Assembly: GCA_903912525.1 (NCBI GenBank)
Contig: CAIWHK010000007.1
Location: 22,563 to 86,562, forward strand
DNA length: 64,000 nt
Source of the DNA: an uncultured bacterium
GTDB taxonomy: Bacteria > Krumholzibacteriota > Krumholzibacteriia > LZORAL124-64-63
Direction of reading: 5' to 3'
Below, one piece after another: positions 8,740-56,314 of this stretch (position 1 is its first letter; each line of letters opens with the position of its first letter). The notes beneath the pieces were generated by a model. The model was not told the DNA's origin, ran no database searches, and was given only the letters and a program-made list of their open reading frames with translations. Made by a program: the position numbers and the translations under genes.

Positions 8740-8790
8740 CGGGACGGGGTGCGGCGTCCGCTTCGGCGGGCGCCGCGCCTTTTTCTATGC
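8740..8790. terminator. Putative bidirectional rho-independent terminator between the convergent MCP and CYTH genes
   Basis: GC-rich imperfect hairpin gcggcgtccgcttcggcgggcgccgc followed by cctttttct. Confidence 0.3.
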
Positions 8791-9309
8791 CCGGCCCAGC
8801 AGGTCGACGTACGCGCCTTCCACCAGTTGCGCCGGCGCAACTCCCAGCTGTGCCATCAGTGCGTGGGCCTCGGCTTCGCCCACCGCGCTCGCCTCGTCAT
8901 CGCGCAGCACGACCTCGAGCTCGAGGAATTCTCCCAACCCCTCCACGCGGTCCAGGTGCACCCGCGTTCGCCCGACCATGACCAGCGTGCGCCGCTTGCG
9001 CACGCGCCCCGCCTCGCCGTAGGCCAGCGACAGCGCGAGCCGCAGGGAGTCACAGTCGTCGACGGGCGCCAGCACGTAGAACGACTCCTTCGGGCCGGCA
9101 TCGTCCGCGCGGCGATAGTAGATCAGTTCGCCGCCGCCGGTCGCGAACGCGCGCAGCTTCAGGCGCCCGGTGTCGCAGGGGAAGAACGTGTCGTCCTGGA
9201 TGATGTCGCACGCCGGCTCGGTGGCCAGCGCCGCGGCGCGGGCGGCGACGGCGTCCAGTGACGCTCCGTCGCCGCCCAGCCGGGCCTTGATCTCGATGTT
9301 GCGGGGCAT
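8785..9309 (-). CDS. CYTH-domain protein (CyaB/ThTPase class IV adenylyl cyclase-like)
   Basis: N-terminal MPRNIEIKARL, matching the ExExK signature of CYTH triphosphate tunnel enzymes. Confidence 0.65.
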   Translation of the reverse strand: MPRNIEIKARLGGDGASLDAVAARAAALATEPACDIIQDDTFFPCDTGRLKLRAFATGGGELIYYRRADDAGPKESFYVLAPVDDCDSLRLALSLAYGEAGRVRKRRTLVMVGRTRVHLDRVEGLGEFLELEVVLRDDEASAVGEAEAHALMAQLGVAPAQLVEGAYVDLLGRA

Positions 9310-13418: not shown

Positions 13419-14528
13419 TCAGGCGCCGGCATCCCACTGCGCGACGACGCGATCGAGCAGCGCGCCGGCATTCGTCTCCCCCATGCCGCCGTCGCCGAGC
13501 GGGTCGTCCTGCGCATCGCGCCCGGCCAGCGCCCGCGCCAGGTTGGCCACGCCCACGGCCAGCACCTCGGTGTCGTAGCCACCCTCGAGCATCACCGCGA
13601 TGCGGCCGCCGCAAAGCTCGTCGGCCGCCTGCACCAGCTGCCGACAAGCCCACGCATAGCCCGCCAGCGAGTACTGCAATTGCGCCAGCGGATCGCGCCA
13701 GTGCGCATCCCAACCCCCTGAAACCAGCAACAGGTCGGGCCTGAACCGGCGCAACTGCGGCAGCACGATGCGCGCGAAGGCCGCCTTGAGCGCCGCATCG
13801 CCGGCGCCGGGCGGCAGCGGGATGTTCACGTTCGCGCCGACGCCGGCGCCCTCGCCCGTCGCGTCGAACCAGCCGGTGCCCGGCCACAGCGGGTACTGGT
13901 GCAGCGAGATGAACAGCACCGACGGGTCGGCGATGAAGATGTCCTGCGTGCCGTTGCCGTGGTGCACGTCGAAGTCGACGATCGCGATGCGCGGAGTTGC
14001 GCCGGCGCAAGTGCCGGTGCCCACGCCCGCCGCCTGCGCCGCCCGCGCGGCGATGGCGATGTTGTTGAAGACGCAGAAGCCCATCGTGCGCGACGGCGTC
14101 GCGTGGTGCCCGGGCGGCCGCACCAGCGCCAGGCCGCGGTCGCACGTGCCGCGCATGATCGCGGTCGCGAGGTCCGCCGCGGCGCCGGCCGCGCACAACG
14201 ACGCCCGCCACGTGTGCTCGTTCGCATAGGTGTCCTCGTCGAGCATGACCGGCGTGTCGGCGACCAGCCGCGCGACCGTGTCGATGTGTGCGGCCTCGTG
14301 CGCGAGCAGCAGTTCGTCGCGCGTCGCCTCGCGCACGGACAGCGGCGTGAACTCGGCCAGCAGCGATGTGCGTTCGAGCTCGCGCCGGACCTCGACCAGG
14401 CGCTCGGGGCGCTCGGGGTGGCCGGGCTTGGCGTGGTCGAGGAACAGGGGGGAAGCCGCTAGGGCAAGGCGGGCGGTCACGGGAACCTCGCTTCCATGGT
14501 CGCTTCGGGTGAGGGTCCGAGCACGCAT
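13419..14528 (-). CDS. Histone deacetylase-family (HDAC/AcuC/AphA-like) deacetylase carrying an in-frame REP-derived insertion
   Basis: PPGHHA, DFDVHHGNGTQ and GGYD motifs. Start placed at the Met downstream of the REP copy at 14614-14633. An 8-residue insert VGTGTCAG is encoded by a REP copy at 13986-14005. Confidence 0.75.
   Translation of the reverse strand: MRARTLTRSDHGSEVPVTARLALAASPLFLDHAKPGHPERPERLVEVRRELERTSLLAEFTPLSVREATRDELLLAHEAAHIDTVARLVADTPVMLDEDTYANEHTWRASLCAAGAAADLATAIMRGTCDRGLALVRPPGHHATPSRTMGFCVFNNIAIAARAAQAAGVGTGTCAGATPRIAIVDFDVHHGNGTQDIFIADPSVLFISLHQYPLWPGTGWFDATGEGAGVGANVNIPLPPGAGDAALKAAFARIVLPQLRRFRPDLLLVSGGWDAHWRDPLAQLQYSLAGYAWACRQLVQAADELCGGRIAVMLEGGYDTEVLAVGVANLARALAGRDAQDDPLGDGGMGETNAGALLDRVVAQWDAGA
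13986..14005. repeat. REP-like palindrome copy (variant GAGTTGCGCCGGCGCAAGTG), in-frame inside the HDAC gene
   Basis: Matches the 20-bp family consensus GACTTGCGCCGGCGCAAGTC with 3 substitutions; encodes GTCAGA inside the ORF. Confidence 0.7.
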
Positions 14529-14613
14529 GGTTGCGAGGATCCAGGGCGGTGTCAATCCCCTGGGCAAAACGACAGGGACCCGAGCCACGGCCCGGGTCCC
14601 CATTTCCGATCCC

Positions 14614-14633
14614 GACTTGCGCCGGCGCAACTC
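14614..14633. repeat. REP-like palindrome GACTTGCGCCGGCGCAACTC
   Basis: Between the stop of the 14652 gene and the HDAC start. Confidence 0.8.
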
Positions 14634-14651: not shown

Positions 14652-15545
14652 TTAGCCCTCCGCCTCCTGGGCCCCGGGCGCCGCCTCGGCAGCCGGGTTC
14701 AGGCGTGCGTGCACGGCCTGCACGGTGGCCCAGGCGCAGCGGGTCAGCGTCGGGCGGCCGATGAGTGCGCGGCGGATCTCGTCGAGGATGGCCGGGCCGA
14801 GGTCGGCCGCGGTGCGGAAGGCGCCACCGACAAAGAACGGGCGACGGCCGTTGCCGTCGGGCCAGTGCACGCCGATGGTGCCACCGTAGACGTTGTGCGA
14901 GCCGGACAGGTGCTTCAGCTGCATCGAGAACATGCGGTCGGGCTCGACCAGGACGTGCGCGATGCCGGTCAGGGCCAGCGCCAGTGCATCGACATGCAGG
15001 ACATGGCCGCCGGTCTGGTCGACACTGACGTAGACGACGGGCAGGCGACAGCCCGCCTCGCCGGTGACGCAGCGCACGGCGAGCTCCATGTCCAGGTCGG
15101 ACAGGCGCACGGGCGTCGAGCGCACGGCCAGGGCGCCGTCCATCGCGCCGCCAAGCTCTTCGATCAGGGTATGGACGATGACCGGCTTCTTGACGGCCGG
15201 CACCGGCACGCCGGGGCCGCGCGCGTCGGCCGAGACGCGCACCGAAATCCAGGCATCGTCAGCCTGCCGCGAGTAGACCAGCGTGGTGGCCCACTTGAGC
15301 AGGCCTTCCTGGCGCGCGAAGCCGACGGCGACCGATTCGTCCTCTGGCAGGTTGACGCGAAGCACGCGCACCAGTTCATCGCCTTCGCCGGCAGTGAACA
15401 TATTCGCGGTTTCGAAGTCGGCCAGCGACTCGGCGGTCAGCGCAGTCTCGGGCGTCGAGAGAATCCACTCCCGGACGACACGTAGGAATTCAGACGGATC
15501 GGCGCCATGGTCGATCGGGAATTCCGTAGCGAACAGCAGCATCAT
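14652..15545 (-). CDS. Hypothetical protein (298 aa), no recognisable domain
   Basis: Long ORF with genome-typical codon usage. ATGATG start with a GGAAG RBS; the track's AT-rich 5' extension is rejected. Confidence 0.5.
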   Translation of the reverse strand: MMLLFATEFPIDHGADPSEFLRVVREWILSTPETALTAESLADFETANMFTAGEGDELVRVLRVNLPEDESVAVGFARQEGLLKWATTLVYSRQADDAWISVRVSADARGPGVPVPAVKKPVIVHTLIEELGGAMDGALAVRSTPVRLSDLDMELAVRCVTGEAGCRLPVVYVSVDQTGGHVLHVDALALALTGIAHVLVEPDRMFSMQLKHLSGSHNVYGGTIGVHWPDGNGRRPFFVGGAFRTAADLGPAILDEIRRALIGRPTLTRCAWATVQAVHARLNPAAEAAPGAQEAEG

Positions 15546-16094
15546 TGTACTTCCTGCGTCATTTGGGCGATGACTACTGGAGCAATTATAATATAAACGT
15601 AAATGAAAAAGAAAGCACGCTGTTCCGTCTGGCGGAACCTGCAACGGTAAGTTGTTAAATTTGCGCAAGTTGTCGGGTCAAAAAATATGACACAGGGTCT
15701 GCTGGAGGCGGCAGGGCGAGCGGAGGAATCTCATTTTAAGTCAAATGCCGCAAATCCGCGAAAACGGGTGATTTAGTGACAATCGGGGGCTTGCCAGGAT
15801 CTTCGCCAGACAAAAGCTCTTTGCCCCCATGAACTTCACTCCAATGTACCGGCACGACCCCAAGGGCGGTCGGCCTCGTCGAGGTGTCGGCACCTGCCTG
15901 CAGGAGATGGAAATGGACTCGCTCCCCCTGTAGCGGGATAATGCCTGAAATGAATGCGGGGATGCCGGGGCGGGTGGCGCATGGGATGCCGCGCCCGGGG
16001 GCCGACCGTCGGAATCCGGTGCCGCCAGACCAACCCTCCCGCACGCCGCCGCCACCAACGGCGCCGGCAACCAGCTCGCCGATCAGGACAAGCC

Positions 16095-17596: not shown

Positions 17597-17616
17597 CAGT
17601 TGCGCCGGCGCAAGTG
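17597..17616. repeat. REP-like palindrome CAGTTGCGCCGGCGCAAGTG
   Basis: 12 bp after the DUF2779 stop. Confidence 0.8.
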
Positions 17617-18865: not shown

Positions 18866-19645
18866 CTATTTCACCAGCACGCCCTTGGTCGAGACCTGCA
18901 GGCCCGGGGCCGTCACCGCGAAGATGTAGGTGCCCGCCGGCATCGCCCGGCCTTCCTCATCCCGCCCATCCCAGTCGACCGCCAGGGGACCTGCCGCAGC
19001 CGGGGCGTCGTACACGACCGCCACGCGGGCGCCGCGCGCGTCGTACACGGACACCGTGGCCCGCCCGGCTTCCGGCAGCACGCACTTGACCTCGGTGCGG
19101 GGGTTGAACGGATTCGGCCACACCGACAGCGAAGCGTCGCGCGTGGGCACGTCGCCCGTGCCGCTCGACAACGGCCCCACCTGCACCTTGCCGGGCGGCA
19201 GGGTGACGGTGCTGAACCAGCTGCCGTCGGTCGTCGCCAGGTAGACCTCGACGGCGGTGATCGCGCTCATGCCGTTGGCCAGCGCCTTGAAATTCCAGTA
19301 GAACAGTTCGCCGGGGCCGTGGACCGAGAGGCCCGCCCCCATCAGCACCGCGTACCCGTGCCACTGGCCGGCGACAGGCGCCTCAAAGCCCTGGAACGTG
19401 TAGACCCCGCTGCTTGTGTAGAGGGTGCCCGAACCGCCGCCCAGGGACTGGACGATGGTCGGGTCGTAGGTGACCGTCACGTCGATGGTGCGGATCTCCA
19501 CCGGCTGGTCGAGCCGGATCGACAGGCGGCAGTTCTCGCCGACGGAAAGCGTCGTATCGGCAGGATCGAACCGCAGGCTGACCTGGGCGAACGCCGTCGT
19601 CGCCAGGCACATGCCCACCAGCACAAGAAGGATCCGTCGCATCAT
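18866..19645 (-). CDS. Secreted protein with T9SS (Por) C-terminal sorting domain
   Basis: Signal peptide MMRRILLVLVGMCLATTAFAQ; C-terminus WPNPFNPRTEVKCVL...GTYIFAV is a T9SS CTD-like Ig fold. Confidence 0.65.
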   Translation of the reverse strand: MMRRILLVLVGMCLATTAFAQVSLRFDPADTTLSVGENCRLSIRLDQPVEIRTIDVTVTYDPTIVQSLGGGSGTLYTSSGVYTFQGFEAPVAGQWHGYAVLMGAGLSVHGPGELFYWNFKALANGMSAITAVEVYLATTDGSWFSTVTLPPGKVQVGPLSSGTGDVPTRDASLSVWPNPFNPRTEVKCVLPEAGRATVSVYDARGARVAVVYDAPAAAGPLAVDWDGRDEEGRAMPAGTYIFAVTAPGLQVSTKGVLVK

Positions 19646-19736
19646 TTCAGCCTCTTTCGCCAAATATCGGGGGCGTTTGGGGCGGGCCACCAAGGACGTC
19701 GTCCTCGGCCGACCCGCCCCACCGACTGCGAACAGT

Positions 19737-22700
19737 CTACTTCATCAACGTCATCTTCCGCACGTCGCTGTACGGACCAGCATCGACGCGGTAGAAGTAC
19801 GTGCCGGAAGCGACACTCTGGCCAGCATCGTCACGACCGGTCCACACGATCTCGTGCAGGCCAGCGCCACGCGTCTCGTCCAGCAGCGTCGCGACCTTGC
19901 GACCGTCCAGACCGTAGACCGTCAGCCGCACATGCTGCGTCTCGGGCAGCGAGAAGCTGATCTTGGTCATCGGGTTGAACGGGTTCGGGTAGTTGCCGTT
20001 CAGGGCGAACGCACGAGGCGTCGCCTGGCCGCCAGCCGCGCTGGTCAGCTTGACTTCCATCTTGCTGTTGTCGATGGCGCGAGCCGTGATCGTCAGGTCG
20101 CTGAGCTCGATGGCCTCACCAGCCGGGATCACGAACAGGTCGCCCGTACCGGTGAAGGTCGTGTTGACGCCCATCACCGCAACGTTGGCATCCAGCGTCT
20201 CGCCGATGTTCTGCACGAAGGTCAGCTCGGACTGCTCGTCGAGCAGGCCGCCGGCCACCAGCGCACCCACCGGCTTGTTCGCCGTCACGCGCACACCCTT
20301 GAGGCCCGCGCCGTCGACCAGACGCAGCGCCATGCTGCCGTCGTCGTAACGGACCCAGGCCAGGTCGACCGAGGTGCCCACGATCGCATCGGACTTCGCC
20401 GCCGTGACGACGCCGAAGTTCATGGCGAAGATCATCAGGTCCTCGAAGTTGATCTTGCTGTCGGTGTCCGGGATGCCGAGGCGGCTGAAGTTGTCAGTCG
20501 GACCGACGTCCACCGGGCTGGCCGCGGAATTCAGCGCCACCGAAGCGTTGCCGAAGTACGTGCCGAGCACGGTCATGTCATAGACGTTGACCAGGCCGTT
20601 GGGAACCAGGTTGCCCGCCGTGCCGTCCACATCGCCCAGCCAGTAGTTGGTCGCGCGCTTGATGGCCGCGGCCGGGCCGCTGGGGTTGTTGGCGGCGTCG
20701 ACGGCGAACACTTCGTAGTAGTACACGCCGCGGTTGGCGGCAGTGGCCCACGTGTCGGTGAAGGTCGTCGTGCCGGCAGGCACGGTACCGGCCAGCACCC
20801 ACGCCGGGCCGGCAGCGACCAGCGCACGGGTGGCCTGACGGGCCGGGATCACGTTGCCGACCAGGTCGTCGTACTCGGGGTAGGCCGAGACGCCGATCGT
20901 GCCGTTGGTCCACAGGCCGCGATAGACCTCGTAGTTAGCCACATCGACGCCGGTGTGGGTCCAGCCCACGGCGACCTTGTTGTGGCCCGGGGCCGCCGTA
21001 ATGGCGGTCACGGCCGCGGGAGCGGTGCAGTCGACCGCGATGGTCGCGCCCGACATCAGCGAGGGGATCGGGGCGTTGTTCGGGTCACGCAGCGAGAAGC
21101 TGTCGAACGAGATGTTCGCCGTGCCCGTGTTCGTCGCGACGTACTGGATCGTGAACAACGGGGTCGTGCCCACAGCAGTGATCGGCTGCGTCGGGCTGCC
21201 GACCGTCGTGCCCGAGATCATGTACGAGCCGTCGCCCTGGTTGAAGGTCAAGAACTGCGTGGTGCCGCCGAACGGCGCCAGGCTGCTGATCGTGCCCCAG
21301 TTGACCGGGCCGGTGGCCCGAACGACGGCGTTGAAGCCGAACACGTCCGGCATGCCGTCGGTCTTGGTCATGTTGACCGTCAGGGTCTGGGACTGGCTGC
21401 AGTTGATCGGGCCGCTGGTGGCCGGAGTCATGGCGACGACGGCGTTGCCGGACTCGAAGTTGACCTTCAGCGTCTGACCACTGTTGAGCTCGATGACCAG
21501 GCCGTCGAGCTGGCCGTTGAAGCCGGCTGCCCAGGCGGTGCCCACGGACAGGCCCATCATCAGGATGGTCTGGCTCGTGTAGGTCGGGTTGTTCGAAATG
21601 TCCGACAGGAAGCCGTCGGTGTAGCTACCGAAGTAGTTCGCCGGGGGCGACGAGTCGAAGAACCGCAGGCGGTTGTTGGCGCCGGCATCGGTCGTCCACT
21701 GGTTCCAGGCACCGGCGGTATCGACCAGGTTCTGCGAGAAGTAGGGCTCCGAGCCGATGCGGTTGCCGTACCAGCTGGAGTGGCCGCCCACGTACGGGTC
21801 GGTGTACATGTACAGGAACCAGTCCGACGCATCGGCCGTGTGCAGCGTACCCTTCTTGGTCAGGTAGCTGATGCGGTAGATCTCGCCGACGGTGACCGGG
21901 CGGCCGAAGACCACTTCCGGATCGAGCACGTAGCGCGTGTAGGCATTCGGGGCCTTGATCGAGCCGGTGCCGAAGCCGGCGGCGCCATCGCCGTCGACGC
22001 CGATGGCCGGGGTGCCTTCAAGGAAGAAGGGGCCGGTCGGCGTAGCGATCCGCGCCAAGACGCTGGTCGTGCGGCCGACCCAGGGCGTGAACAGGACGCC
22101 GTTCGACACCGGGGCGCCGGTGCCGGTCGGGTTCAGGACAGCGTTGGCCGGGCCACTGGCGTTGCCCCACGAGTTGTTGATGGCATTCAGCATCATACTG
22201 GTGGAGTTCAGCACGCCCTGGGCACTGCCGTTGAACGTGTTGCCGCTGAACGCAACATCGCTGAGGTCGAGCGCGCCGGGGCGCACCCGCACGCCGGCCG
22301 TGGCACAGCCGGTGAAGCTGTTGCCCGTACCGGTCAGCACGCCATCGAACCCGTCGTAGATGCTGATGCCGATTGATCCCAGATTGCTGAACGTGTTGCC
22401 CGAAACGACCAGATTGTTGTTCGCCGAGGCCACGATCATGCCCGACTGGTCATCGTACCAGTTCGGCCCGGTGATTGCGGTGTCAGTGAACAAGTTGTTG
22501 CTGATGGTCCCATGGACATTGTTCACATTCAGGGCCCAGCCCTGGTTGTCCCGGAAGACGTTATCGCGGATGTCCACGTGGTGCACGCCAGTGCCCCACA
22601 GTGCGATACCGTTCGAAACGATGCTGCCCGTGAACAGGTTGTCGAGCAGGTTGAAGTAGAGATCGCCCAACGTCCCGGTCAGGTACCAGTTGCCGTTGAC

Positions 22701-24113
22701 GCAATCCCTGGCGTTGGCGAACACGTTGTGCTCGAACGTCCAGGTGTTGCTGGCCTGGTTGATGAGTTCGACGAAGCGGTAGTTGTTATTGGTGCCCGTC
22801 AGGTCGAAATTCATGCCCTTGACGGCCACCGACATACCAGCCGCCGTACCCAGGATGGCATGGGTGTTGCCCAGGGGGGCCAGCACCGCGGGCGCCACCT
22901 GGCCGGCCGCGTTGGGGCTGAGAGCGGCGTTCGGACCCAGGATGGTCACGTTCTTGCCGATGGTCAGGCCCTCGTTGTAAGTACCGGCGGCCACCATGAC
23001 GATGTCGCCCGCCGCCGCGGTGCCGATTTCGGCCTGGATCGAAGTGCCGATCCGGCGGCAGTGGTTGAACACGTAGCTGCCCGAGGTGTAAGAGTACTCT
23101 CGCAGGTCCGCAGGCGGATTGGCGCCGGCAACCACCGCATGGTCGAACGTGTTGTTGGCGAAGTAGGAGCCCCAGTCGAACTGGCTGTTGTCATAGTCGC
23201 CGCGGGCGCGAATGTACTGCCCGTTGCCGCCGGAAAAGCTGTTACCGGTGATCACGGCACCGCCCACGCCGTAGACGAACCATTCCACACCGGTGCCGGA
23301 GCCATTGAAGCTGATGGCATTCCAAATTGCGCCGTCCATCTCGAAGCTGTTGTTCAGGACCTGACGCCCCGCGACCGGCCCGCTGAAGCCGCCGCCCGAG
23401 GCGATGTCGAGGCTGGTTCCGTAGGTGAACTGGTTGCCCAGCACGGTGTAGCTCTTCACCAACGAGGTGTCCGCAACAGCATCGTACCGGAAATCATTGA
23501 TGTAAAGACTGCCGCCATCGGTCAGGCGACAGTATTTGATGGTCGCCGCATCACCAATGACTTCGATCGTCTTGTTCACATTAATAGGATTCAGGAACAA
23601 GTTGAGACCGGAGACGGTCACATTCGATCCCTGGATGAACACGCCGCTGGCTCCGAAGCTGTTAGTGGCGTTGCACTGCACATTGGCAACGACGCCGGCG
23701 TAGCTCGTGATCGGCATCCCCGCCGCATCGACGCCCTGCACCGTCACGCCATCAGCGGCCAGGAACAGTCCGAAGGTGTACGGACCGACGCCATCGTACA
23801 GGTAGCTGTTGACAGCTGCCTCGATGTAGCTGCCCGGGAACACGTTGATGGTGCCGCCGGCGTTGATCGCCTGGACGGCGCCGTTGATGGTCGCGAAACG
23901 ATCCACGCCCCAACCGGTCGTGGCACTGGTGTAGCCGTCGTCCACCCAGGCGGTCGACACGCCCATGGGCGCTGCCTTGGCGGCCACCTGCGTGAATCCC
24001 TTGCCGTCGGGGATTCGCGAGAAGACGTTGCGATCGCCGGACTGATCCGCCGCCGCCCACGCGCTGCCGGCCAACAGGGCCAGCATCAGGAAGCTCAACA
24101 GGAATCTCTTCAT
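19737..24113 (-). CDS. Very large secreted right-handed beta-helix (pectate-lyase-like repeat) adhesin/enzyme-like protein with FN3-like domain and T9SS C-terminal domain
   Basis: Signal peptide MKRFLLSFLMLALLAGSAWA; many NxxF/NNxF parallel beta-helix repeats; FN3-like segment; C-terminus NGNYPNPFNPMTKISFSLP...GTYFYRV. Confidence 0.75.
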   Translation of the reverse strand: MKRFLLSFLMLALLAGSAWAAADQSGDRNVFSRIPDGKGFTQVAAKAAPMGVSTAWVDDGYTSATTGWGVDRFATINGAVQAINAGGTINVFPGSYIEAAVNSYLYDGVGPYTFGLFLAADGVTVQGVDAAGMPITSYAGVVANVQCNATNSFGASGVFIQGSNVTVSGLNLFLNPINVNKTIEVIGDAATIKYCRLTDGGSLYINDFRYDAVADTSLVKSYTVLGNQFTYGTSLDIASGGGFSGPVAGRQVLNNSFEMDGAIWNAISFNGSGTGVEWFVYGVGGAVITGNSFSGGNGQYIRARGDYDNSQFDWGSYFANNTFDHAVVAGANPPADLREYSYTSGSYVFNHCRRIGTSIQAEIGTAAAGDIVMVAAGTYNEGLTIGKNVTILGPNAALSPNAAGQVAPAVLAPLGNTHAILGTAAGMSVAVKGMNFDLTGTNNNYRFVELINQASNTWTFEHNVFANARDCVNGNWYLTGTLGDLYFNLLDNLFTGSIVSNGIALWGTGVHHVDIRDNVFRDNQGWALNVNNVHGTISNNLFTDTAITGPNWYDDQSGMIVASANNNLVVSGNTFSNLGSIGISIYDGFDGVLTGTGNSFTGCATAGVRVRPGALDLSDVAFSGNTFNGSAQGVLNSTSMMLNAINNSWGNASGPANAVLNPTGTGAPVSNGVLFTPWVGRTTSVLARIATPTGPFFLEGTPAIGVDGDGAAGFGTGSIKAPNAYTRYVLDPEVVFGRPVTVGEIYRISYLTKKGTLHTADASDWFLYMYTDPYVGGHSSWYGNRIGSEPYFSQNLVDTAGAWNQWTTDAGANNRLRFFDSSPPANYFGSYTDGFLSDISNNPTYTSQTILMMGLSVGTAWAAGFNGQLDGLVIELNSGQTLKVNFESGNAVVAMTPATSGPINCSQSQTLTVNMTKTDGMPDVFGFNAVVRATGPVNWGTISSLAPFGGTTQFLTFNQGDGSYMISGTTVGSPTQPITAVGTTPLFTIQYVATNTGTANISFDSFSLRDPNNAPIPSLMSGATIAVDCTAPAAVTAITAAPGHNKVAVGWTHTGVDVANYEVYRGLWTNGTIGVSAYPEYDDLVGNVIPARQATRALVAAGPAWVLAGTVPAGTTTFTDTWATAANRGVYYYEVFAVDAANNPSGPAAAIKRATNYWLGDVDGTAGNLVPNGLVNVYDMTVLGTYFGNASVALNSAASPVDVGPTDNFSRLGIPDTDSKINFEDLMIFAMNFGVVTAAKSDAIVGTSVDLAWVRYDDGSMALRLVDGAGLKGVRVTANKPVGALVAGGLLDEQSELTFVQNIGETLDANVAVMGVNTTFTGTGDLFVIPAGEAIELSDLTITARAIDNSKMEVKLTSAAGGQATPRAFALNGNYPNPFNPMTKISFSLPETQHVRLTVYGLDGRKVATLLDETRGAGLHEIVWTGRDDAGQSVASGTYFYRVDAGPYSDVRKMTLMK

Positions 24114-24257
24114 GGGTTCCCCCCCAATTGGGTAAAAAGGCACATCACGTTCTTCCCTGACCGATCGAGTCCGGCTGCGTCCATGCATGCCGGATCGCCG
24201 GCCAGGCGCCTGGGGGGTGAGTCCCGGGGCGCCCGACCGGCGCCGTGATCATCCGAA

Positions 24258-27176: not shown

Positions 27177-27654
27177 GGTGCTTTCCTCCGATGAACGTGA
27201 TTGCCGTCATCTGGAGTGCTGGGCGAAAGCACGCCGAGATCATAGCGAAACCGAATGAGTTGTTTTGCGTCTCCCCTGAGTTGATGCTAAGGGCATCATC
27301 ATCGATTGCTGGTCGCCCATGCGGTGCATTGGGCAGGCATCGAACGGGGTGCATGATGGCACGTTTGCAACATCCGAGTCAAGAGACTTGCAATATTCTC
27401 GCAGTTCTTTAGAGATACATGACTTTGAACGTCATTATTGTAAAGTACCATGGTGCAACGAACCGCATCGATTGTCTATTTTGTGCCTGTCGCGTGTGGG
27501 GGCTCCGGTGGAAAAGACGCGATACCTTGTGTCTTGATTGTATTTTGCACGTGTATGAAGCTTTTTTTTGCCGACGGGGGAGAATGTGTTAGGCTAGGGA
27601 ACGAGGCACGGCAGTGATGCACGTGCATGTGCTCCATCATGGGGGATATTCATC
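27177..27654. promoter_or_regulatory. AT-rich (about 45% GC) 480-bp divergent intergenic region, likely carrying promoters for both flanking secreted-protein genes
   Basis: Sharp GC drop relative to the 68% background; includes ttgcacgtgtatgaagcttttttttgcc; no convincing ORF. Confidence 0.4.
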
Positions 27655-28212: not shown

Positions 28213-28244
28213 GGCCGGACTGTCGTTGAGACCGGATTACGGGG

Positions 28245-28264
28245 GACTTGCGCCGGCGCAAGTC
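28245..28264. repeat. REP-like palindrome GACTTGCGCCGGCGCAAGTC (perfect; extended to 28 bp by GGGG/CCCC flanks)
   Basis: Between the cohesin-like and VOC genes. Confidence 0.85.
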
Positions 28265-28375
28265 CCCCTTGCCGTCCCCACCCGCCCATTCTTATCTAGT
28301 CCGCCTATAGGTCCCCCGCATGGACTTGCCCGGCCGCGTCGCCCCTCACCGCGATGCCGCGCCCAAGGAGACAGC

Positions 28376-29152: not shown

Positions 29153-29181
29153 GGGGCGGCGGCACAGAGAGATCGAGAGGG

Positions 29182-29201
29182 GGACTTGCGCCGGCGCAAG
29201 T
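29182..29201. repeat. REP-like palindrome GACTTGCGCCGGCGCAAGTC (perfect)
   Basis: 30 bp after the VOC stop; first of a tandem pair. Confidence 0.85.
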
Positions 29202-29251
29202 CCCCTTTGCCGTTCTCAGGCGGAGAGAAGGATGCCTGGCCGCTACACCCC

Positions 29252-29271
29252 GGACTTGCACCGGCGCAAGT
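29252..29271. repeat. REP-like palindrome GACTTGCACCGGCGCAAGTC (1 mismatch)
   Basis: Second of the pair, 50 bp downstream. Confidence 0.8.
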
Positions 29272-31081: not shown

Positions 31082-31099
31082 GTTGCGCCGGCGCAAGTC
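31080..31099. repeat. REP-like palindrome GAGTTGCGCCGGCGCAAGTC
   Basis: Overlaps the AbiEii stop codon; sits between convergent genes. Confidence 0.8.
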
Positions 31100-32025: not shown

Positions 32026-32802
32026 CTAGTCATCTTCTTCATCGCCGATCGAGGCCATGGCGGCTTCCTGCAGGGCGCGCTCGGCGTCCTCGTGCGCGGC
32101 CAGGCGCCGATGGACTTCATTCACGTCCACCGTGAACCCCCAGAAGCACTCGAGCAGGACATCGTCGCGGATCATGGTGCAGCCGAACCGCGTGAAGCAT
32201 GCAACGATGGCGTCGTGGTCCTTGGACCTGAATGCGAGATTAGGCTCCATGTCGCAAGAGGTGTCCTGCCATTCGCCATAGGCGTTGGCGACGATGGGCG
32301 GGACGCCCTCCTCCATCGCCCTCATGGGGCAGTAGAGGTGGAGGTATCCCTCTTCTTCGTATTCGTATAGGTCTCCCAGGCAGATCTCGTCCTCGTCCAG
32401 CGGGCCGCGGCCGAGCGGAAACGGGATATCGGCGTACTCGGCGCGCAACTCGGCCTCGGTCAGCGTCGCGCGCAGTTCGTCGACGTCGAGGTCGTCACAG
32501 TAGGCGGCATCGTGCGCAGCATCGTTCAGTTCGCCATTTGCGAACGCATCGAAATCCGGGTAGCACGCTATGAAGGACAGTTCCTCGCGCAGGTCGTCGG
32601 CCTCGCACCCGCCCAGTTCGGTGAAACGCCCCCAGGTCCCTGCGGATTCGGCCGCGGCGAAGAAAGGGGCCCACAACGACATCTCGTCGAACGGGACGAA
32701 CACCAGGCCGCCATTGCACGGGTCCGCGCCGTAGATGAAGACCTCGGCCATGGGATCCGGACGACGGGCGGGGCCGTTGCCCGAAAAGTGGCGCACGCTC
32801 AT
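32026..32802 (-). CDS. Acidic hypothetical protein, paralog 2
   Basis: Start MSVRHF overlaps the stop of the upstream gene (ATGA). IYGADPCNGGLVFVPFDE and GCTMIRDDVLLECFWGFTVDVNEV motifs. Confidence 0.5.
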   Translation of the reverse strand: MSVRHFSGNGPARRPDPMAEVFIYGADPCNGGLVFVPFDEMSLWAPFFAAAESAGTWGRFTELGGCEADDLREELSFIACYPDFDAFANGELNDAAHDAAYCDDLDVDELRATLTEAELRAEYADIPFPLGRGPLDEDEICLGDLYEYEEEGYLHLYCPMRAMEEGVPPIVANAYGEWQDTSCDMEPNLAFRSKDHDAIVACFTRFGCTMIRDDVLLECFWGFTVDVNEVHRRLAAHEDAERALQEAAMASIGDEEDD

Positions 32803-33623
32803 CGGCGACTCCCCTCGACAACGGCAGTCCGCACATCCTCGCACGCGAACCGCAGGAAGTCGTGCACATGGGCCAGCAGCGGATGATCCGGACCGCCCAC
32901 CGGCACCAGCGTCCGGTTGACCTCGACCATCAGCGAGCGCGTGTCGTTGACGTGCGGCGGCAGGTCGCCGGGCACGAAGGAACCCGCGAACGGCCGGTTG
33001 TGGTCGATGAGGCCCGGCGCGCCCGCGGCGCGACCCGTCCACCACGCCAGCCAGTTGCGCGGCGCGTGGACCTCGTCGTAGCCGAGGCAATACCATGGCC
33101 GCGAGCCGCCGTCCGTCTCGTAGGGCAGCGGCGCCTGGGGAAACGAGTGCAGGTCGATGATGTGGACCGGCGCGTCGAAGCGCTCGCGCAGTTCGACGAC
33201 CAGGTCGCGCATGGCGCGGTGGTACGGGTGGTAGAACTCGTCCATGCGCTCGGCGCGGTCGTCGGCGTCCCAGTTGCGCCGGCGCAAGCGGCGGCCGTCG
33301 TGCGCGTGCACATAGATGGCGCCCATGCCCCAGACGGCGGCGATCTCGTCGGCGTCGGCGGCGTATCGCTCGGGGTCCATCACGACACGGCAGACGTTGT
33401 TGACCACGACGTGGGCGCCGAGCGCCACCAGGGGCAGCGCCAGGCGGTCGGTGTCGTGGTCGACGAGGGCCTCGATCACTTCGCGGAGCTCTGCGTCGGT
33501 CAGCACGAAGTCGCCACGGCAGTGCAGGGGCACGAAGCGCGAGGCGTGGGGCACGTGGATGATGATCGGCAGCGCCACTGCCGGGTCGGGACGATGGATG
33601 GTAAGCCAGGCGTTGTCGCCCAT
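32799..33623 (-). CDS. N-formylglutamate amidohydrolase (FGase, PF05013-like) fold protein with in-frame REP-derived insertion
   Basis: IIIHVPHAS motif typical of the FGase family. A REP copy at 33271-33290 encodes the RRLRRRNW insert. Confidence 0.6.
   Translation of the reverse strand: MGDNAWLTIHRPDPAVALPIIIHVPHASRFVPLHCRGDFVLTDAELREVIEALVDHDTDRLALPLVALGAHVVVNNVCRVVMDPERYAADADEIAAVWGMGAIYVHAHDGRRLRRRNWDADDRAERMDEFYHPYHRAMRDLVVELRERFDAPVHIIDLHSFPQAPLPYETDGGSRPWYCLGYDEVHAPRNWLAWWTGRAAGAPGLIDHNRPFAGSFVPGDLPPHVNDTRSLMVEVNRTLVPVGGPDHPLLAHVHDFLRFACEDVRTAVVEGSRR
33271..33290. repeat. REP-like palindrome variant CAGTTGCGCCGGCGCAAGCG, in-frame inside the FGase-fold gene
   Basis: Encodes RRLRRRNW on the minus strand. 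Confidence 0.65.
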
Positions 33624-33624
33624 C

Positions 33625-38614: not shown

Positions 38615-38634
38615 GAGTTGCGCCGGCGCAAGTC
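38615..38634. repeat. REP-like palindrome GAGTTGCGCCGGCGCAAGTC
   Basis: Intergenic, next to the 38646 remnant ORF. Confidence 0.8.
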
Positions 38635-39302: not shown

Positions 39303-39322
39303 GACTTGCGCCGGCGCAAGTC
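39303..39322. repeat. REP-like palindrome GACTTGCGCCGGCGCAAGTC (perfect)
   Basis: Upstream of the SWIM-SNF2 helicase gene. Confidence 0.85.
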
Positions 39323-42879: not shown

Positions 42880-42909
42880 CGGGGCGCAGGTCACACCGGG
42901 CCGGCGGCG

Positions 42910-42929
42910 GACTTGCGCCGGCGCAAGTC
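42910..42929. repeat. REP-like palindrome GACTTGCGCCGGCGCAAGTC (perfect)
   Basis: Between the convergent helicase stop (42879) and MqsA-like stop (42942). Confidence 0.85.
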
Positions 42930-42941
42930 CCCGCTACTCCC

Positions 42942-43620: not shown

Positions 43621-43892
43621 CCATCGAATTGGCAAGCCCGCTGGGGACGCGTGGGCTGTCAGCCAAACCGGCGATGGCCACATGGCGCCCTACAAAGCCC
43701 AGAATGTGACAGGTGCGTCATCAACCGCCACTTGCCGGTGACATCGGCGACGGCACAGCCCACGCGACGGCCCATCATAACCACGGCCAGTGACGGCACT
43801 AGGCCTCGAATGGCGTCCAGCCCTCGCTTGGTCACTGGAGTTGCTCGCCATTGGCTGGCATCGAGAACTGACCAACGGCAAAGGCGGCGCCA

Positions 43893-44911: not shown

Positions 44912-44931
44912 GACTTGCGCCGGCGCAAGTC
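44912..44931. repeat. REP-like palindrome GACTTGCGCCGGCGCAAGTC (perfect)
   Basis: 3 bp after the YhcG paralog 3 stop. Confidence 0.85.
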
Positions 44932-48429: not shown

Positions 48430-48545
48430 GGGTACGTCCCGTGGTCGATGGTGGCGGTGCCGGGTGTGTGAGGGCCGGTGGGGATGACAATAGTGCATTA
48501 TAACGCGTTTGGGGGTGATGGATCTACAGAAATGAGGGGGTGCGC

Positions 48546-48565
48546 CAGTTGCGCCGGCGCAAGTC
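48546..48565. repeat. REP-like palindrome CAGTTGCGCCGGCGCAAGTC
   Basis: Between the M6 protease start region and the YhcG1 stop. Confidence 0.8.
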
Positions 48566-48591
48566 CCCCGCACCGTAGTCGCAATTTATAA

Positions 48592-49690: not shown

Positions 49691-49969
49691 TTCGTTTCCT
49701 GACCATGATTCCCGTCCCAATCTGCCGGATGTGCCGACGCGGTCCTGATGCCAACGTGGGTTCACGGATGCGGCGCGACGTGTCGCGGACGATATGCGCC
49801 TGCGGGACAACGTCGTGGCGAAGGTGCTGTCTGCGACGAACCGCACGCAGGGCACCAAACGGGCCGTTCCTGTGGAGTTGCACGGGTTGCGCGATGACGC
49901 CAATGGGGCAGCCACGCACGCATTCGCGGTGGCTATAGGGCAGGCGGCGGGCCAGATGGTGAATGAGGC

Positions 49970-49989
49970 AACTTGCGCCGGCGCAAGTC
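49970..49989. repeat. REP-like palindrome AACTTGCGCCGGCGCAAGTC
   Basis: Cassette array; followed 45 bp later by the AT-palindrome 50027-50060. Confidence 0.8.
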
Positions 49990-50026
49990 GGGCCCGTTAC
50001 CGGGCAACTGATTGCTGTTTTGCGAC

Positions 50027-50200: not shown

Positions 50201-50220
50201 GAGTTGCGCCGGCGCAAGTC
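50201..50220. repeat. REP-like palindrome GAGTTGCGCCGGCGCAAGTC
   Basis: Cassette array; upstream of the HTH-ImmA gene. Confidence 0.8.
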
Positions 50221-51434: not shown

Positions 51435-51440
51435 CCTGGC

Positions 51441-51460
51441 CACTTGCGCCGGCGCAAGTC
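51441..51460. repeat. REP-like palindrome CACTTGCGCCGGCGCAAGTC
   Basis: 7 bp after the ImmA stop; followed by the AT-palindrome 51497-51530. Confidence 0.8.
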
Positions 51461-52675: not shown

Positions 52676-52695
52676 GACTTGCGCCGGCGCAAGTT
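52676..52695. repeat. REP-like palindrome GACTTGCGCCGGCGCAAGTT
   Basis: 14 bp downstream of the YhcG2 stop. Confidence 0.8.
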
Positions 52696-54087: not shown

Positions 54088-54107
54088 GACGTGCGCCGGC
54101 GCAAGTC
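54088..54107. repeat. REP-like palindrome GACGTGCGCCGGCGCAAGTC
   Basis: Cassette array; followed by the AT-palindrome 54145-54177. Confidence 0.8.
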
Positions 54108-54177: not shown

Positions 54178-54400
54178 CCAAAACAGAAAACAATCTCACA
54201 TCAAGCAACATCGGCACGCACTGCTGCGCGCTACCGCGAGGCCGTGAACACACATCCAATCGGTGCCGCCCTGGCGAAGAACGCGCCCCTGTGCCCACTC
54301 CTGGCGGCGCTCCCAGCCGCCCACCTCAGAACGCCGGACCAAGCAGACCGGCCGATCCGGGCACAACTGCTGCCTACAAATGGTCGCGAACCGCCGCACC

Positions 54401-54420
54401 GACTTGCGCCGGCGCAAGTC
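54401..54420. repeat. REP-like palindrome GACTTGCGCCGGCGCAAGTC (perfect)
   Basis: Cassette array; followed by the AT-palindrome 54457-54490. Confidence 0.85.
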
Positions 54421-54456
54421 GACGGCCTTCGACATAACTGGTTCCAAAACAATCAA

Positions 54457-54533: not shown

Positions 54534-55127
54534 TTGTGCATGGACACCAAGACACAAAGCCACCGCGCCGGCCCCAGCTGGGACCAGCTCTACGAAACCG
54601 CTGCCGCCCAGGCCGGCCACTTCACGACGGCCCAGGCCGAGGCCGCGGGGTACTCGCCCCAGCTGCTGGCCAAGTACCTGGCCAACGGGCGTGTGGTCAG
54701 GGTGCGTCGCGGCGTGTACCGCCTCACCCATTTTCCGGCGGGCGAACTCGAGGAGTTCGCCGTCGTGTGGCTGTGGAGCGAGCGGGCCGGGGTCTTTTCG
54801 CATGAGACGGCGCTGTTTCTGCATGGGCTGTCCGATGCGCTGCCGTCACGAGTCCACCTGACGCTGCCCGCGGATTGGCGTCGGCGAAGGCTGCGCGTAC
54901 CGGATGGCGTCGCGACGCACTTCGGCGAGGTGGCCGGTGCGGATCGCGGCTGGGTGGGCCCGGTGCCTGTGACCGCTGTTGCGCGGACGCTCGTCGATTG
55001 TGCGGAGGCCGGGGTTGCGCCGGAGATGGTGCGCGATGCCATGGAGCAGGCGATCGAGCGTGGGATGATTCGCAAGGGATCAGTGCCGCGACTTGCGCCG
55101 GCGCAAGTCCGGCCGGATCGCGCCTAA
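54534..55127 (+). CDS. AbiEi-like (COG5340) antitoxin/regulator, orphan; C-terminus encoded by a REP copy
   Basis: WDQLYETAAAQAGHFTTAQAEAAGYSPQLLAKYLANGRVVRVRRGVYRL winged-helix N-domain typical of AbiEi. The last residues LAPAQVRPDRA are translated from REP 55090-55109. Confidence 0.5.
   Translation: MCMDTKTQSHRAGPSWDQLYETAAAQAGHFTTAQAEAAGYSPQLLAKYLANGRVVRVRRGVYRLTHFPAGELEEFAVVWLWSERAGVFSHETALFLHGLSDALPSRVHLTLPADWRRRRLRVPDGVATHFGEVAGADRGWVGPVPVTAVARTLVDCAEAGVAPEMVRDAMEQAIERGMIRKGSVPRLAPAQVRPDRA
55090..55109. repeat. REP-like palindrome GACTTGCGCCGGCGCAAGTC (perfect)
   Basis: Forms the 3' end of the AbiEi-like ORF 54534-55127; followed by the AT-palindrome 55147-55180. Confidence 0.85.
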
Positions 55128-56294: not shown

Positions 56295-56314
56295 GACTTG
56301 CGCCGGCGCAAGTC
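56295..56314. repeat. REP-like palindrome GACTTGCGCCGGCGCAAGTC (perfect); last copy in the window
   Basis: Followed by the AT-palindrome 56351-56384. No copies are found in the lower-GC island beyond 56.7 kb. Confidence 0.85.

What the first reader, a model, noticed from the sequence alone, without database searches (positions are those of the whole stretch)
13986..14005. REP-like palindrome inserted in-frame inside two enzyme genes (HDAC at 13986 and FGase-fold gene at 33271)
In the HDAC-family gene the palindrome encodes an 8-residue insert (VGTGTCAG). The insert lies between the conserved PPGHHA and DFDVHHGNGTQ motifs, where canonical HDACs have a short loop. In the FGase-fold gene (32799-33623) a second copy encodes RRLRRRNW. 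Both copies preserve reading frame. This indicates that these mobile palindromes can colonise coding sequence and be tolerated as loop insertions.
Basis: partly seen in the sequence, partly recalled or inferred. Interest (0 to 1): 0.55.

Follow-up and report, generated by a model that had tools for sequence, protein, structure and literature searches.

The report
Iterated palindrome recoded into genes
A 14-base palindrome that litters this uncultured bacterium's genome does sit in frame inside enzyme genes, but in two of the three genes it was written over existing codons rather than inserted (the deacetylase gene is undecided), so it is a new example of a known kind of repeat.

Summary
The palindrome is real. 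TTGCGCCGGCGCAA occurs 20 times exactly, plus 2 one-mismatch copies, in 64 kb; about 1 match at up to 2 mismatches is expected by chance. The true positions are 13997-14010 (HDAC gene) and 33274-33287 (FGase gene), with a third in-gene copy at 8827-8840 (CYTH/CyaB gene). Eighteen of 22 copies are intergenic. Ten lie 1-35 nt after a stop codon, and many of the intergenic copies are extended by GAC/GTC and further pairing into strong hairpins, so the family is REP-like.

The insertion reading fails where it can be tested. The FGase copy (LRRRN) and the CYTH copy (VAPAQ) lie in ungapped, conserved protein segments. An ortholog has the same length there without the palindrome. The palindrome is spelled with rare A/T-ending codons. 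In CYTH it is kept exactly across orthologs of 68-75% identity while most neighbouring synonymous sites differ.

The HDAC copy (TCAGA) lies in a surface loop that is 7-8 residues longer than in solved HDAC6 domains. That longer loop also exists in relatives without the palindrome, and the closest of them has the same length at the site. Insertion there is neither shown nor excluded.

Independent assemblies rule out misassembly. Intragenic REPs are already known, so novelty is modest.

The parts
13997..14010 (.). 14-bp palindrome inside the HDAC-family gene. In the gene frame it reads ACT TGC GCC GGC GCA ACT, i.e. T-C-A-G-A-T. With its flanks it matches 20 of 22 bases of the extended family consensus.
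13419..14480 (-). HDAC-family (Hist_deacetyl, PF00850) gene. The likely start is GTG near 14480, by alignment to P0001. The palindrome lies in the loop formed by residues 178-189 of the 378-residue translation that was modelled.
33274..33287 (.). 14-bp palindrome inside the FGase-family gene. In the gene frame it reads TTG CGC CGG CGC AAC, i.e. L-R-R-R-N. It is not an insertion.
32799..33623 (-). FGase-family (PF05013) gene.
8827..8840 (.). 14-bp palindrome inside the CYTH / class IV adenylate cyclase-like gene. In the gene frame it reads G|TT GCG CCG GCG CAA, i.e. V-A-P-A-Q, ending 14 codons before the stop. It is conserved exactly in orthologs of 68-75% identity.
8785..9309 (-). CYTH (PF01928) gene.
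55093..55106 (.). Palindrome in the last 12 codons of an AbiEi_4-like ORF (54531-55127, +). It reads L-A-P-A-Q.
14617..14630 (.). Intergenic copy, 21 nt after the stop of the gene at 14652-15668 (-) and upstream of the HDAC start.
17600..17613 (.). Intergenic copy, 14 nt after the stop of the DUF2779 gene.
28241..28268 (.). Intergenic copy extended to a 28-bp perfect palindrome, GGGGGAC-core-GTCCCCC. As RNA the hairpin folds at -25.6 kcal/mol (z = -5.5).
29180..29205 (.). Intergenic copy forming a 26-bp perfect palindrome, 33 nt after a stop codon.
29256..29269 (.). One-mismatch copy (TTGCACCGGCGCAA), 70 nt from the copy at 29186.
31083..31096 (.). Intergenic copy between convergent genes, 1 nt and 17 nt from the two stop codons.
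38618..38631 (.). Intergenic copy in a divergent promoter region.
39303..39322 (.). Intergenic 20-bp copy just upstream of the SNF2 helicase gene.
42909..42930 (.). Intergenic 22-bp copy between convergent genes.
44912..44931 (.). Intergenic 20-bp copy whose 14-bp core starts 5 nt after the stop of the YhcG gene.
48549..48562 (.). Intergenic copy, 29 nt after the stop of the YhcG gene at 48592-49626 (-).
49971..49988 (.). Intergenic copy that begins a 101-nt composite repeat.
50204..50217 (.). Intergenic copy upstream of the HTH-M78 gene.
51442..51459 (.). Intergenic copy between convergent genes. Homology between the window and L089 ends exactly at this palindrome.
52677..52694 (.). Intergenic copy whose 14-bp core ends 16 nt after the YhcG stop.
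54091..54104 (.). One-mismatch copy (GTGCGCCGGCGCAA) inside a composite repeat.
54400..54421 (.). Intergenic 22-bp copy.
56295..56314 (.). Intergenic 20-bp copy.

Best explanation
TTGCGCCGGCGCAA is the core of a very abundant REP-like repeat family. Its 20-bp consensus is (G/C)AC-core-GT(C/G). The host is an uncultured high-GC bacterium of the FCB group, and its nearest named relatives are Krumholzibacteriia-like MAGs.

Most copies are intergenic, often just 3' of genes. There, variable complementary flanks extend many of them into strong hairpins. I infer that these act as terminator or mRNA-end hairpins, and perhaps as recombination junctions.

The few copies inside genes are not added codons, at least in two of three cases. 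In FGase and CYTH (shown) the 14-mer was written over pre-existing codons by nucleotide substitution. It uses rare A/T-ending codons and, in FGase, amino-acid changes at a variable position and the adjacent D/N position. In HDAC (likely, not shown) it occupies codons of a Gly/Ala-rich surface loop that was already long and varies by slippage.

The three frames translate to harmless peptides: LRRRN, VAPAQ and TCAGA. What is maintained in genes is the exact double-stranded sequence, not a hairpin. This points to a sequence-specific pressure: either selection for a protein recognition site, or a biased conversion or uptake-like drive. Such a pressure would perfect near-matches wherever coding constraints allow, as is documented for DNA uptake sequences. 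The agent of that pressure is inferred and was not identified.
For: 1. No indel.
- FGase shows no gap against 23 homologs, and L121 and R122 are invariant.
- Ortholog DNA in L088 and L089 has the same length and matches the palindrome at only 7 of 14 bases.
- The AF2 model has pLDDT 98 across this segment.
- In CYTH, LG[VI]APAQL is common in the family and never gapped.

2. Rare codons.
- TTG is 7.3% of Leu codons, GTT 4.4% of Val, CAA 8.5% of Gln, ACT 4.3% of Thr and GCA 4.5% of Ala.
- Given each peptide, the probability of it being spelled as the palindrome is 5.6e-3, 3.3e-4 and 6.2e-4. Yet each such peptide in the window is spelled that way.

3. Conservation at the DNA level. In CYTH the window, L005, L210/L213 and L214 all keep (G/A)TT GCG CCG GCG CAA, while 9 of the 12 surrounding conserved-residue codons differ in at least one of the four.

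4. Exactness. Related contigs hold 140 exact 14-mers against 9 one-mismatch copies in 437 kb, although 89 of the 140 were exact by selection as search anchors. The window holds 20 exact against 2.

5. Coding copies fold no better than shuffled sequence (z = -1.1, +0.8, 0.0). Extended intergenic copies give z = -4.5 to -5.5.

6. Eighteen of 22 copies are intergenic although only 17% of the window is intergenic (P = 4e-11). Ten lie 1-35 nt after a stop codon.

7. HDAC.
- L002, L004 and L006 already have the long loop without the palindrome.
- L002 shares the GCGCCGGCGC core in the same frame and at the same spacing from the conserved CCG-CGY-ATC.

8. Precedent. Findlay and Redfield (PMC2817400) describe uptake sequences in coding regions, placed preferentially at poorly conserved residues.
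Against: - The family is overwhelmingly intergenic. Only 14-18% of window copies lie in ORFs, and only about 4 of the 140 exact copies in related contigs look coding by a strict test. By contrast, 34.5-65% of uptake sequences lie in ORFs. This fits a mobile extragenic element better than a genome-wide drive, although a 14-20 bp motif is much harder to fit into coding sequence.
- The HDAC copies in the window and in L001 match the 20-22 bp consensus beyond the core. L001 has the standard CAC-core-GTC form. This is what insertion of a whole family member would give.
- Several HDAC loops keep GCGCCGGCG in different reading frames (L006 and L210 against L002 and the window). That could be the decayed trace of an old DNA insertion.
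- The direction of change between L002 and the window cannot be polarised with the sequences available.
- No protein that reads the motif was found in the window.
Confidence: 0.68

Rival explanations
1. First reader's model, restricted to HDAC. A whole 20-24 bp family member was inserted in frame into the helix-strand loop of the HDAC gene, as with RPEs or intragenic REPs, and is tolerated as a surface-loop extension.
For: - The loop is 7-8 residues longer than in solved HDAC6 domains and than in homologs below 60% identity.
- The copy matches 20 of 22 consensus bases in the window, and L001 has the standard CAC-core-GTC form.
- The loop has low confidence and lies far from the active site.
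- GCGCCGGCG recurs in the loop DNA of L002, L006 and L210 in two different frames.
- Intragenic REPs and RPEs are documented (PMC3733652).
Against: - The extended loop is present in the whole 68-85% identity clade, most of which lacks the palindrome.
- The nearest palindrome-free ortholog, L002, has the same codon count at the site. It differs by 7 substitutions, all of them A/T in the window against G/C in L002, and not by an indel.
- The length differences that do exist are 2 codons upstream (a GGCACC/GGCACT duplication) and 10 codons downstream in L001. They lie outside the palindrome.
- The other two in-gene copies are demonstrably not insertions.
Confidence: 0.27
2. The in-gene copies are chance products of GC-rich codon usage and common Ala/Gly/Arg/Pro peptides.
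For: The core GCGCCGGCGC is built from favoured codons (GCC, GGC, CGC, GCG, CCG), and the host regions are rich in Ala, Gly and Arg.
Against: - From base composition I expect about 1e-3 exact copies per 64 kb, and shuffles give about 1 match even at up to 2 mismatches.
- All three copies need rare A/T-ending codons, with a joint probability near 1e-9 given the peptides.
- Twenty of 22 core 10-mers carry TT..AA flanks.
- The same 14-mer is kept in four diverged CYTH orthologs.
Confidence: 0.01
3. Assembly artefact: repeat-induced chimeric joins placed palindromes inside genes.
For: Short exact repeats can confuse assemblers.
Against: - The same in-gene palindromes occur in independent assemblies of other samples. 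L003 (JGI 3300036977) and L001 (JGI 3300044984) cover HDAC, L086 and L087 (two SRA runs) cover FGase, and L005, L210-L213 and L214 cover CYTH.
- Protein alignments run through the site without a break.
Confidence: 0.01
4. The 14-mer is primarily a gene-specific regulatory site, for example an operator for a dimeric DNA-binding protein at the CYTH gene. The genome-wide family is a later expansion of that site in the window's lineage.
For: - In relatives with few copies, the only copies seen are at CYTH: one in the gene and, in L005 and L210, one just upstream. The loci are L214 (20.5 kb), L210 (20.5 kb) and L005 (12.6 kb).
- L210 has half-sites and a variant 22-bp palindrome next to the upstream copy.
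- A 14-bp perfect palindrome is a typical operator shape (general knowledge).
Against: - One copy per 3 kb, mostly just after stop codons and between convergent genes, is not how operators are distributed.
- No regulator was identified.
- Only about 53 kb of the low-density relatives was sampled, all of it centred on CYTH or HDAC.
Confidence: 0.1

Closest known systems
REP / BIME elements (GTAG- and CGTC-tagged REPs; RAYT/TnpA_REP-associated), including intragenic REPs
   Same: - It is a short GC-rich palindrome at high copy number, mainly extragenic.
- Copies lie preferentially downstream of ORFs and between unidirectional or convergent genes.
- They form hairpins, and a few units lie inside ORFs. 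All of this matches the description in PMC3733652.
   Different: - The palindrome is perfect and untagged. GTAG occurs near only 4 of 218 copies, and there is no asymmetric tail.
- Copies are almost invariant over 14 bp.
- Most are single units rather than head-to-head dimers.
- No RAYT gene lies in the window.
- Two of the three internal in-gene copies replace codons rather than adding them.
Rickettsia palindromic elements (RPE) inserted in frame in protein genes
   Same: A palindromic repeat family is found in frame inside functional genes. One copy (HDAC) lies in a surface loop.
   Different: From general knowledge, RPEs and intragenic REP dimers add about 20-50 residues and are present or absent between orthologs. 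Here only 5-6 residues are encoded, and there is no presence/absence indel in FGase or CYTH.
DNA uptake sequences (Haemophilus USS, Neisseria DUS)
   Same: - It is a short exact motif at hundreds-fold excess with few near-misses.
- Copies in genes arise in place and sit in tolerant positions and frames.
- It occurs in terminator-like inverted arrangements (PMC2817400; DUS pairing in terminators is general knowledge).
   Different: - USS and DUS are not themselves palindromes.
- 34.5-65% of them lie in ORFs, against about 14-18% here.
- Competence and biased uptake are unknown for this lineage and cannot be tested here.
HIP1 (GCGATCGC) of cyanobacteria
   Same: It is a highly iterated exact palindrome maintained by selection or drive, it is found in coding sequence, and its function is unresolved (abstracts of PMC5861425 and PMC4390886).
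   Different: HIP1 is 8 bp and, from general knowledge, common within genes. The present motif is 14-20 bp and mostly intergenic. The methyltransferase link is untested here.
Integron attC sites and gene cassettes
   Same: - In the region 48.5-56.4 kb, single defence or toxin-antitoxin genes are separated by a repeated module of about 100 nt, and the 35-nt part of it always has the same orientation.
- The same genes occur in a different order in another genome (L089).
- Homology ends at the palindrome.
   Different: - No integrase lies in the window.
- The R''/R' core sites (RYYYAAC / GTTRRRY) are absent.
- Only one end of each shared block coincides with a palindrome.

Membership tests
REP (repetitive extragenic palindrome) | A 20-40 bp palindromic unit at high copy number, predominantly extragenic and downstream of ORFs. 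| tested here: met
   There are 22 copies in 64 kb and 18 are intergenic (P = 4e-11). Ten lie 1-35 nt after a stop codon. The consensus is a 20-bp palindrome.
REP (GTAG / CGTC super-families) | An unpaired GTAG or CGTC tag at one end of the hairpin. | tested here: not met
   Over 218 copies the flanks are symmetric (GAC / GTC). GTAG or CTAC lies within 12 nt in 4 copies each, and CGTC in 21, in a genome of about 68% GC.
REP (RAYT-mobilised) | A RAYT / TnpA_REP gene flanked by REPs in the genome. | not testable with these tools
   Thirty-three of the window's roughly 38 ORFs were scanned against Pfam, and none is a Y1 transposase or an integrase. Only 64 kb of the genome is available.
In-frame palindromic insertion (RPE / intragenic REP) | Orthologs lacking the element show a gap of element size at the site. 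| tested here: not met
   - FGase shows no gap in 23 homologs, and ortholog DNA has the same length.
- CYTH shows no gap.
- HDAC is inconclusive. The loop is longer than in distant homologs, but the nearest palindrome-free orthologs have equal length at the site.
In-frame palindromic insertion (RPE / intragenic REP) | The element maps to a surface loop or linker that tolerates extra residues. | tested here: inconclusive
   - Met for HDAC: loop residues 178-189 lie between helix 165-177 and strand 190-194, with pLDDT about 75.
- Not met for FGase: the segment is ordered and conserved, with pLDDT 98.
DNA uptake sequence (USS/DUS) | A short motif at massive excess, with exact copies far outnumbering near-misses. 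| tested here: met
   The window holds 20 exact copies against 2 one-mismatch copies. Related contigs hold 140 against 9, of which 89 exact copies are search anchors.
DNA uptake sequence (USS/DUS) | Coding copies arise by substitution, without indels. | tested here: met
DNA uptake sequence (USS/DUS) | Preferential uptake of motif-bearing DNA by a competence machinery. | not testable with these tools
   The organism is uncultured, and no competence genes were seen in the 64 kb.
Intrinsic (Rho-independent) terminator | A GC-rich hairpin followed by a U tract. | tested here: not met
   The hairpin is strong, at -24 to -26 kcal/mol. The 3' flanks are G/C-rich with no T run. None of the terminator-like sites reported in 48000-57500 coincides with a palindrome copy. 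Copies also occur in divergent promoter regions.
Integron cassette array | An IntI integrase with attI, and attC sites with R''/R' cores. | tested here: not met
   No integrase was found. The module has no RYYYAAC / GTTRRRY cores.
Known RNA families (Rfam) | A match at or above the gathering score. | tested here: not met
   There are 0 matches in the window.

The most novel reading that the evidence does not exclude
The 14/20-bp palindrome may be a sequence-specific recognition site rather than just a hairpin. It could be read by a recombination or DNA-uptake system. Such a system would be driven to perfection in place, even at synonymous sites inside genes, and would also serve as the junction at which single-gene defence and toxin-antitoxin cassettes (NYN, YhcG, AbiEi, HTH-M78) are exchanged between genomes. 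That would amount to an integrase-less cassette system, or an uptake-signal system, in an uncultured FCB-group lineage.
Probability: 0.12. Interest if true: 0.75.

Novelty: new member of a known kind. Interest (0 to 1): 0.4.

Why it matters
It corrects a tempting inference. A repeat-family palindrome inside a gene does not have to be an insertion. Here the motif was written into conserved codons and is held there at synonymous positions across orthologs of 68-75% identity. This shows that DNA-level pressure from a genome-wide repeat can shape codon choice, and even residues (D to N and A to R in FGase), in ordinary enzymes.

It also gives a compact, exactly conserved marker for a poorly known uncultured lineage. 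If the cassette-junction or uptake-signal reading holds, it offers a handle on how these bacteria exchange defence genes. For annotation there are two practical points: C-terminal tails and N-terminal extensions reading LAPAQV, LRRRK or TCAGA in these genomes are often palindromes that have been read through.

Tried and rejected
- Integron hypothesis for 48.5-56.4 kb: no integrase and no R''/R' cores, so rejected as membership and kept only as a resemblance.
- Rfam scan of the window: no hit.
- Literature search for the 14-mer: no paper.
- Selection for a hairpin in coding copies: they fold no better than shuffles, so rejected.
- GTAG/CGTC tags: absent.
- Palindrome as the recombination breakpoint inside HDAC: window and L003 switch from about 11% divergence to 0% at 14103, which is 93 nt from the palindrome and not at it. 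Suggestive only.
- Other palindromes in the HDAC loop as a sign of structural selection: L002 has a 16-bp and L008 a 14-bp perfect palindrome at or near the site. Only 13 non-family palindromes of 14 bp or more occur in 64 kb, but Ala/Gly codons are self-complementary, so I could not make this rigorous.
- DNA for P0122 (75% FGase ortholog, RRLRRRDW) and P0013 could not be fetched, so the intermediate steps toward the FGase palindrome are not seen.
- My strict GC3-based coding test on metagenome loci probably undercounts coding copies.
Full report
**Observation**

The - strand ORF 13419-14630 is a Hist_deacetyl protein (PF00850, E = 5e-90). The - strand ORF 32799-33647 is an FGase-family protein (PF05013, E = 2e-37). 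Both contain the perfect 14-bp palindrome TTGCGCCGGCGCAA, at 13997-14010 and 33274-33287.

In the HDAC frame the palindrome reads ACT TGC GCC GGC GCA ACT (T-C-A-G-A-T). In the FGase frame it reads TTG CGC CGG CGC AAC (L-R-R-R-N).

The motif is not a chance event:
- The window holds 20 exact and 2 one-mismatch copies, against 1.0 +/- 0.9 matches at up to 2 mismatches in shuffles.
- Twenty of the 22 GCGCCGGCGC 10-mers carry TT..AA flanks.

**The family**

- Eighteen of the 22 copies are intergenic although only 17% of the window is intergenic (P = 4e-11).
- Ten copies lie 1-35 nt after a stop codon, four of them between convergent genes. Seven lie upstream of gene starts, six of them in three divergent intergenic regions.
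- Over 218 copies from the window and related contigs the flanks are G(.77) A(.94) C(.89) | core | G(.91) T(.93) C(.78). More than half of these copies were selected by those flanks. There is no further sequence conservation and no GTAG/CGTC tag.
- Complementarity often continues beyond the flanks, up to 28-bp perfect palindromes.
- Extended copies fold as RNA at -24 to -26 kcal/mol, z = -4.5 to -5.5.
- Nothing matches Rfam, and the sequence appears in no searched paper.
In 437 kb of those contigs there are 140 exact 14-mers but only 9 one-mismatch copies.
- The nearest genomes by HDAC similarity are unnamed MAGs, a 'Candidatus Krumholzibacteriia' MAG, and a MAG labelled Fibrobacteraceae.
- Several large proteins in the window carry T9SS-type C-terminal domains, which fits the FCB group.

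**Is the FGase copy an insertion? No.**

- In an alignment with 23 homologs down to 33% identity the segment DGRRLRRRNW has no gap, and L121 and R122 are invariant.
- The AF2 model is highly confident there, with pLDDT 98.
- The 63%-identical ortholog in L088/L089 reads CGC CGC CTG CGG CGC GCG GAC TGG (RRLRRADW). It has the same length and matches the palindrome at 7 of 14 bases.
- The 94%-identical ortholog from two independent SRA assemblies has the palindrome.
- The palindrome was therefore made by substitutions: a rare TTG Leu codon (7.3% of Leu), synonymous Arg changes, and A-to-R and D-to-N replacements at a variable position and the adjacent D/N position.

**A third in-gene copy shows the same pattern more clearly**

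At 8827-8840 the palindrome lies in a CYTH / class IV adenylate cyclase-like gene and reads G|TT GCG CCG GCG CAA (V-A-P-A-Q).
- LG[VI]APAQL[VI]EGAY is a common, never-gapped motif of this family, and L002 has LGVGEGSLV at the same length.
- It uses GTT (4.4% of Val) and CAA (8.5% of Gln) in a genome where 88% of third positions are G or C.
- Orthologs of 68-75% identity from four independent sources (window, L005, L210/L213, L214) keep the 14-mer exactly. Nine of the 12 surrounding conserved-residue codons differ in at least one of the four; across the gene, 45% of such codons are identical in all four.
- In L214, L210 and L005 the only copies in 12-20 kb are those at CYTH. These copies therefore look older than the family's expansion.

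**The HDAC copy**

- The AF2 model (pLDDT 88) places GVGTGTCAGATP (residues 178-189) between helix 165-177 and strand 190-194. That strand carries D194, D196, H198 and H199 at its far end, and the loop block has pLDDT about 75.
- Solved HDAC6 domains have a 7-8 residue gap at this point.
- The long loop is shared by the whole 68-85% identity clade, most of which has no palindrome.
- At the DNA level:
  - L003 (95% identity) is identical to the window.
  - L001 (90%) has the palindrome in the standard CAC-core-GTC form, plus 10 extra codons after it.
  - L002 (84%) has GGC CGC GCC GGC GCG GCG where the window has ACT TGC GCC GGC GCA ACT. The codon count, the GCGCCGGCGC core and the spacing to CCG-CGY-ATC are all the same. 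There are 7 differences, each A/T in the window against G/C in L002.
  - L004 and L006 have unrelated Gly/Ala codons at the same length.
- The only length differences lie outside the palindrome: a GGCACC/GGCACT duplication in the window, and a slippage-like expansion in L001.
- No palindrome-sized indel exists in the data, so recoding in place of an already long loop is the more parsimonious reading.
- Insertion is still not excluded, for two reasons. The copy matches 20 of 22 bases of the extended consensus, and GCGCCGGCG recurs in two different frames in several loops. An old insertion followed by decay would explain both. I give insertion about 0.27 for this gene.

**What is being maintained**

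- Coding copies fold no better than shuffled sequence (z = -1.1, +0.8, 0.0).
- All three reading frames are used: LRRRN, VAPAQ and TCAGA.
- Given each peptide, the chance of the palindromic spelling is 6e-3 to 3e-4.
- The conserved object is therefore the exact duplex sequence. I infer a sequence-specific pressure, either selection for a protein recognition site or a biased conversion or uptake-like drive. This is the behaviour documented for uptake sequences, which accumulate in genes in place and sit preferentially at poorly conserved residues (PMC2817400).
- Against a pure drive model, the family is far more intergenic than USS or DUS (14-18% in ORFs against 34.5-65%).

**Relation to known elements**

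- This family differs from tagged REPs. It is a perfect, untagged and nearly invariant palindrome, no RAYT gene is in view, and two of its three internal in-gene copies replace codons rather than adding them.
- I file it as a new member of the REP-like / highly iterated palindrome kind.

**Side observations**

Region 48.5-56.4 kb is cassette-like:
- It holds single defence or toxin-antitoxin genes: YhcG twice, HTH-M78, NYN and AbiEi twice.
- Five of the palindromes there head a roughly 100-nt module: the palindrome, then about 45 nt, then a 35-nt promoter-like element, TTGGAATTTT-[covarying stem]-AAAAT. A sixth has the same layout with an unrelated spacer. That 35-nt element has 8 copies, all in one orientation and found nowhere else in the window.
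- These genes are 81-97% identical to genes in L089, against 63-82% for housekeeping genes, and they occur there in a different order.
- In two of three junctions the homology stops exactly at the palindrome. In one of these the C-terminus of an AbiEi-like protein in L089 is replaced by LAPAQVDEFTD*.
- No integrase or attC cores are present.

The palindrome may therefore also be a recombination junction. This is the basis of the novel reading, to which I give a probability of about 0.12.

**Misassembly**

Misassembly is excluded by the independent assemblies listed above.

Noticed in passing
window 49345-56386 (copies start at 49345, 50027, 51498, 53462, 54145, 54457, 55147, 56352): There are eight copies of a 35-nt element, TTGGAATTTT-[7-bp stem, CAnTG, 7-bp stem that covaries]-AAAATTGG. 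All have the same orientation and occur only in this 7-kb region (0 expected by chance). Three of them match the sigma-70-like pattern (TTGGAA or TTGTAA, 17-18 nt spacer, TAAAAT). Six lie about 45 nt after a 14-mer palindrome, five of them within a 101-nt composite repeat. Two lie inside the DUF1016_N coding part of the two YhcG paralogs.
   Followed up: partly
window 48549-56314, compared with L089 1-3400: This is a cassette-like island of single defence or toxin-antitoxin genes (YhcG x2, HTH-Peptidase_M78, NYN, AbiEi x2) bounded by palindromes. The genes are 81-97% identical to L089 whereas housekeeping genes are 63-82% identical, and their order differs. Homology blocks end exactly at the palindrome in 2 of 3 junctions. 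No integrase is present.
   Followed up: partly
window 14103 (HDAC gene), compared with L003: There is a sharp recombination breakpoint. Window and L003 differ at 44 of about 380 positions from 14480 to 14103. They then show no difference for 982 nt, and about 1% divergence after that. The breakpoint is 93 nt from the palindrome.
   Followed up: partly
L002 818-833; L008 2028-2041 (HDAC loop): Palindrome-free HDAC orthologs carry other perfect palindromes in the same loop: GCCGCGCCGGCGCGGC (16 bp) and GCGCCCGCGGGCGC (14 bp). Only 13 non-family palindromes of 14 bp or more occur in the whole 64-kb window.
   Followed up: partly
L210 9879-9970 (upstream of the CYTH gene): A cluster made of one full palindrome, two half-sites (GGCGCAAGT) and a variant 22-bp palindrome, CCGCGTGCGCCGGCGCACGCGG. 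In L210, L005 and L214 the only family copies seen in 12-20 kb are at the CYTH gene.
   Followed up: partly
L088 2999-3020 and L089 5412-5433 (3' end of the FGase ortholog): A full 22-bp palindrome lies inside the C-terminal tail of the FGase ortholog (..RDLRRRKSAVAS..). Several other orthologs end in LRRRN/KS, while the window's protein does not. C-terminal tails in this clade are often palindromes that have been read through.
   Followed up: partly
window 56400-64000: GC content drops from about 67% to 57-60%. The region encodes a GmrSD-like restriction endonuclease (58900-60570) and an M48 peptidase, and it holds no palindrome copy. It is probably recently acquired DNA.
   Followed up: no
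window 14013-14024; L001 4312-4341: The HDAC loop shows slippage-type length changes next to the palindrome: a GGCACC/GGCACT tandem duplication in the window, and a 10-codon Ser/Pro/Ala expansion in L001.
   Followed up: partly
window 18866-27206 and 45013-48540: Four large secreted proteins carry FlgD_ig C-terminal domains, and three of them also show weak Por_Secre_tail or CHU_C hits (T9SS-type sorting signals). This fits an organism of the FCB group.
   Followed up: no
window 30101-31081, 54531-55127, 55358-56176: An AbiEii toxin gene and two AbiEi antitoxin-like genes are dispersed rather than paired. A third YhcG paralog lies at 43872-44909.
   Followed up: no
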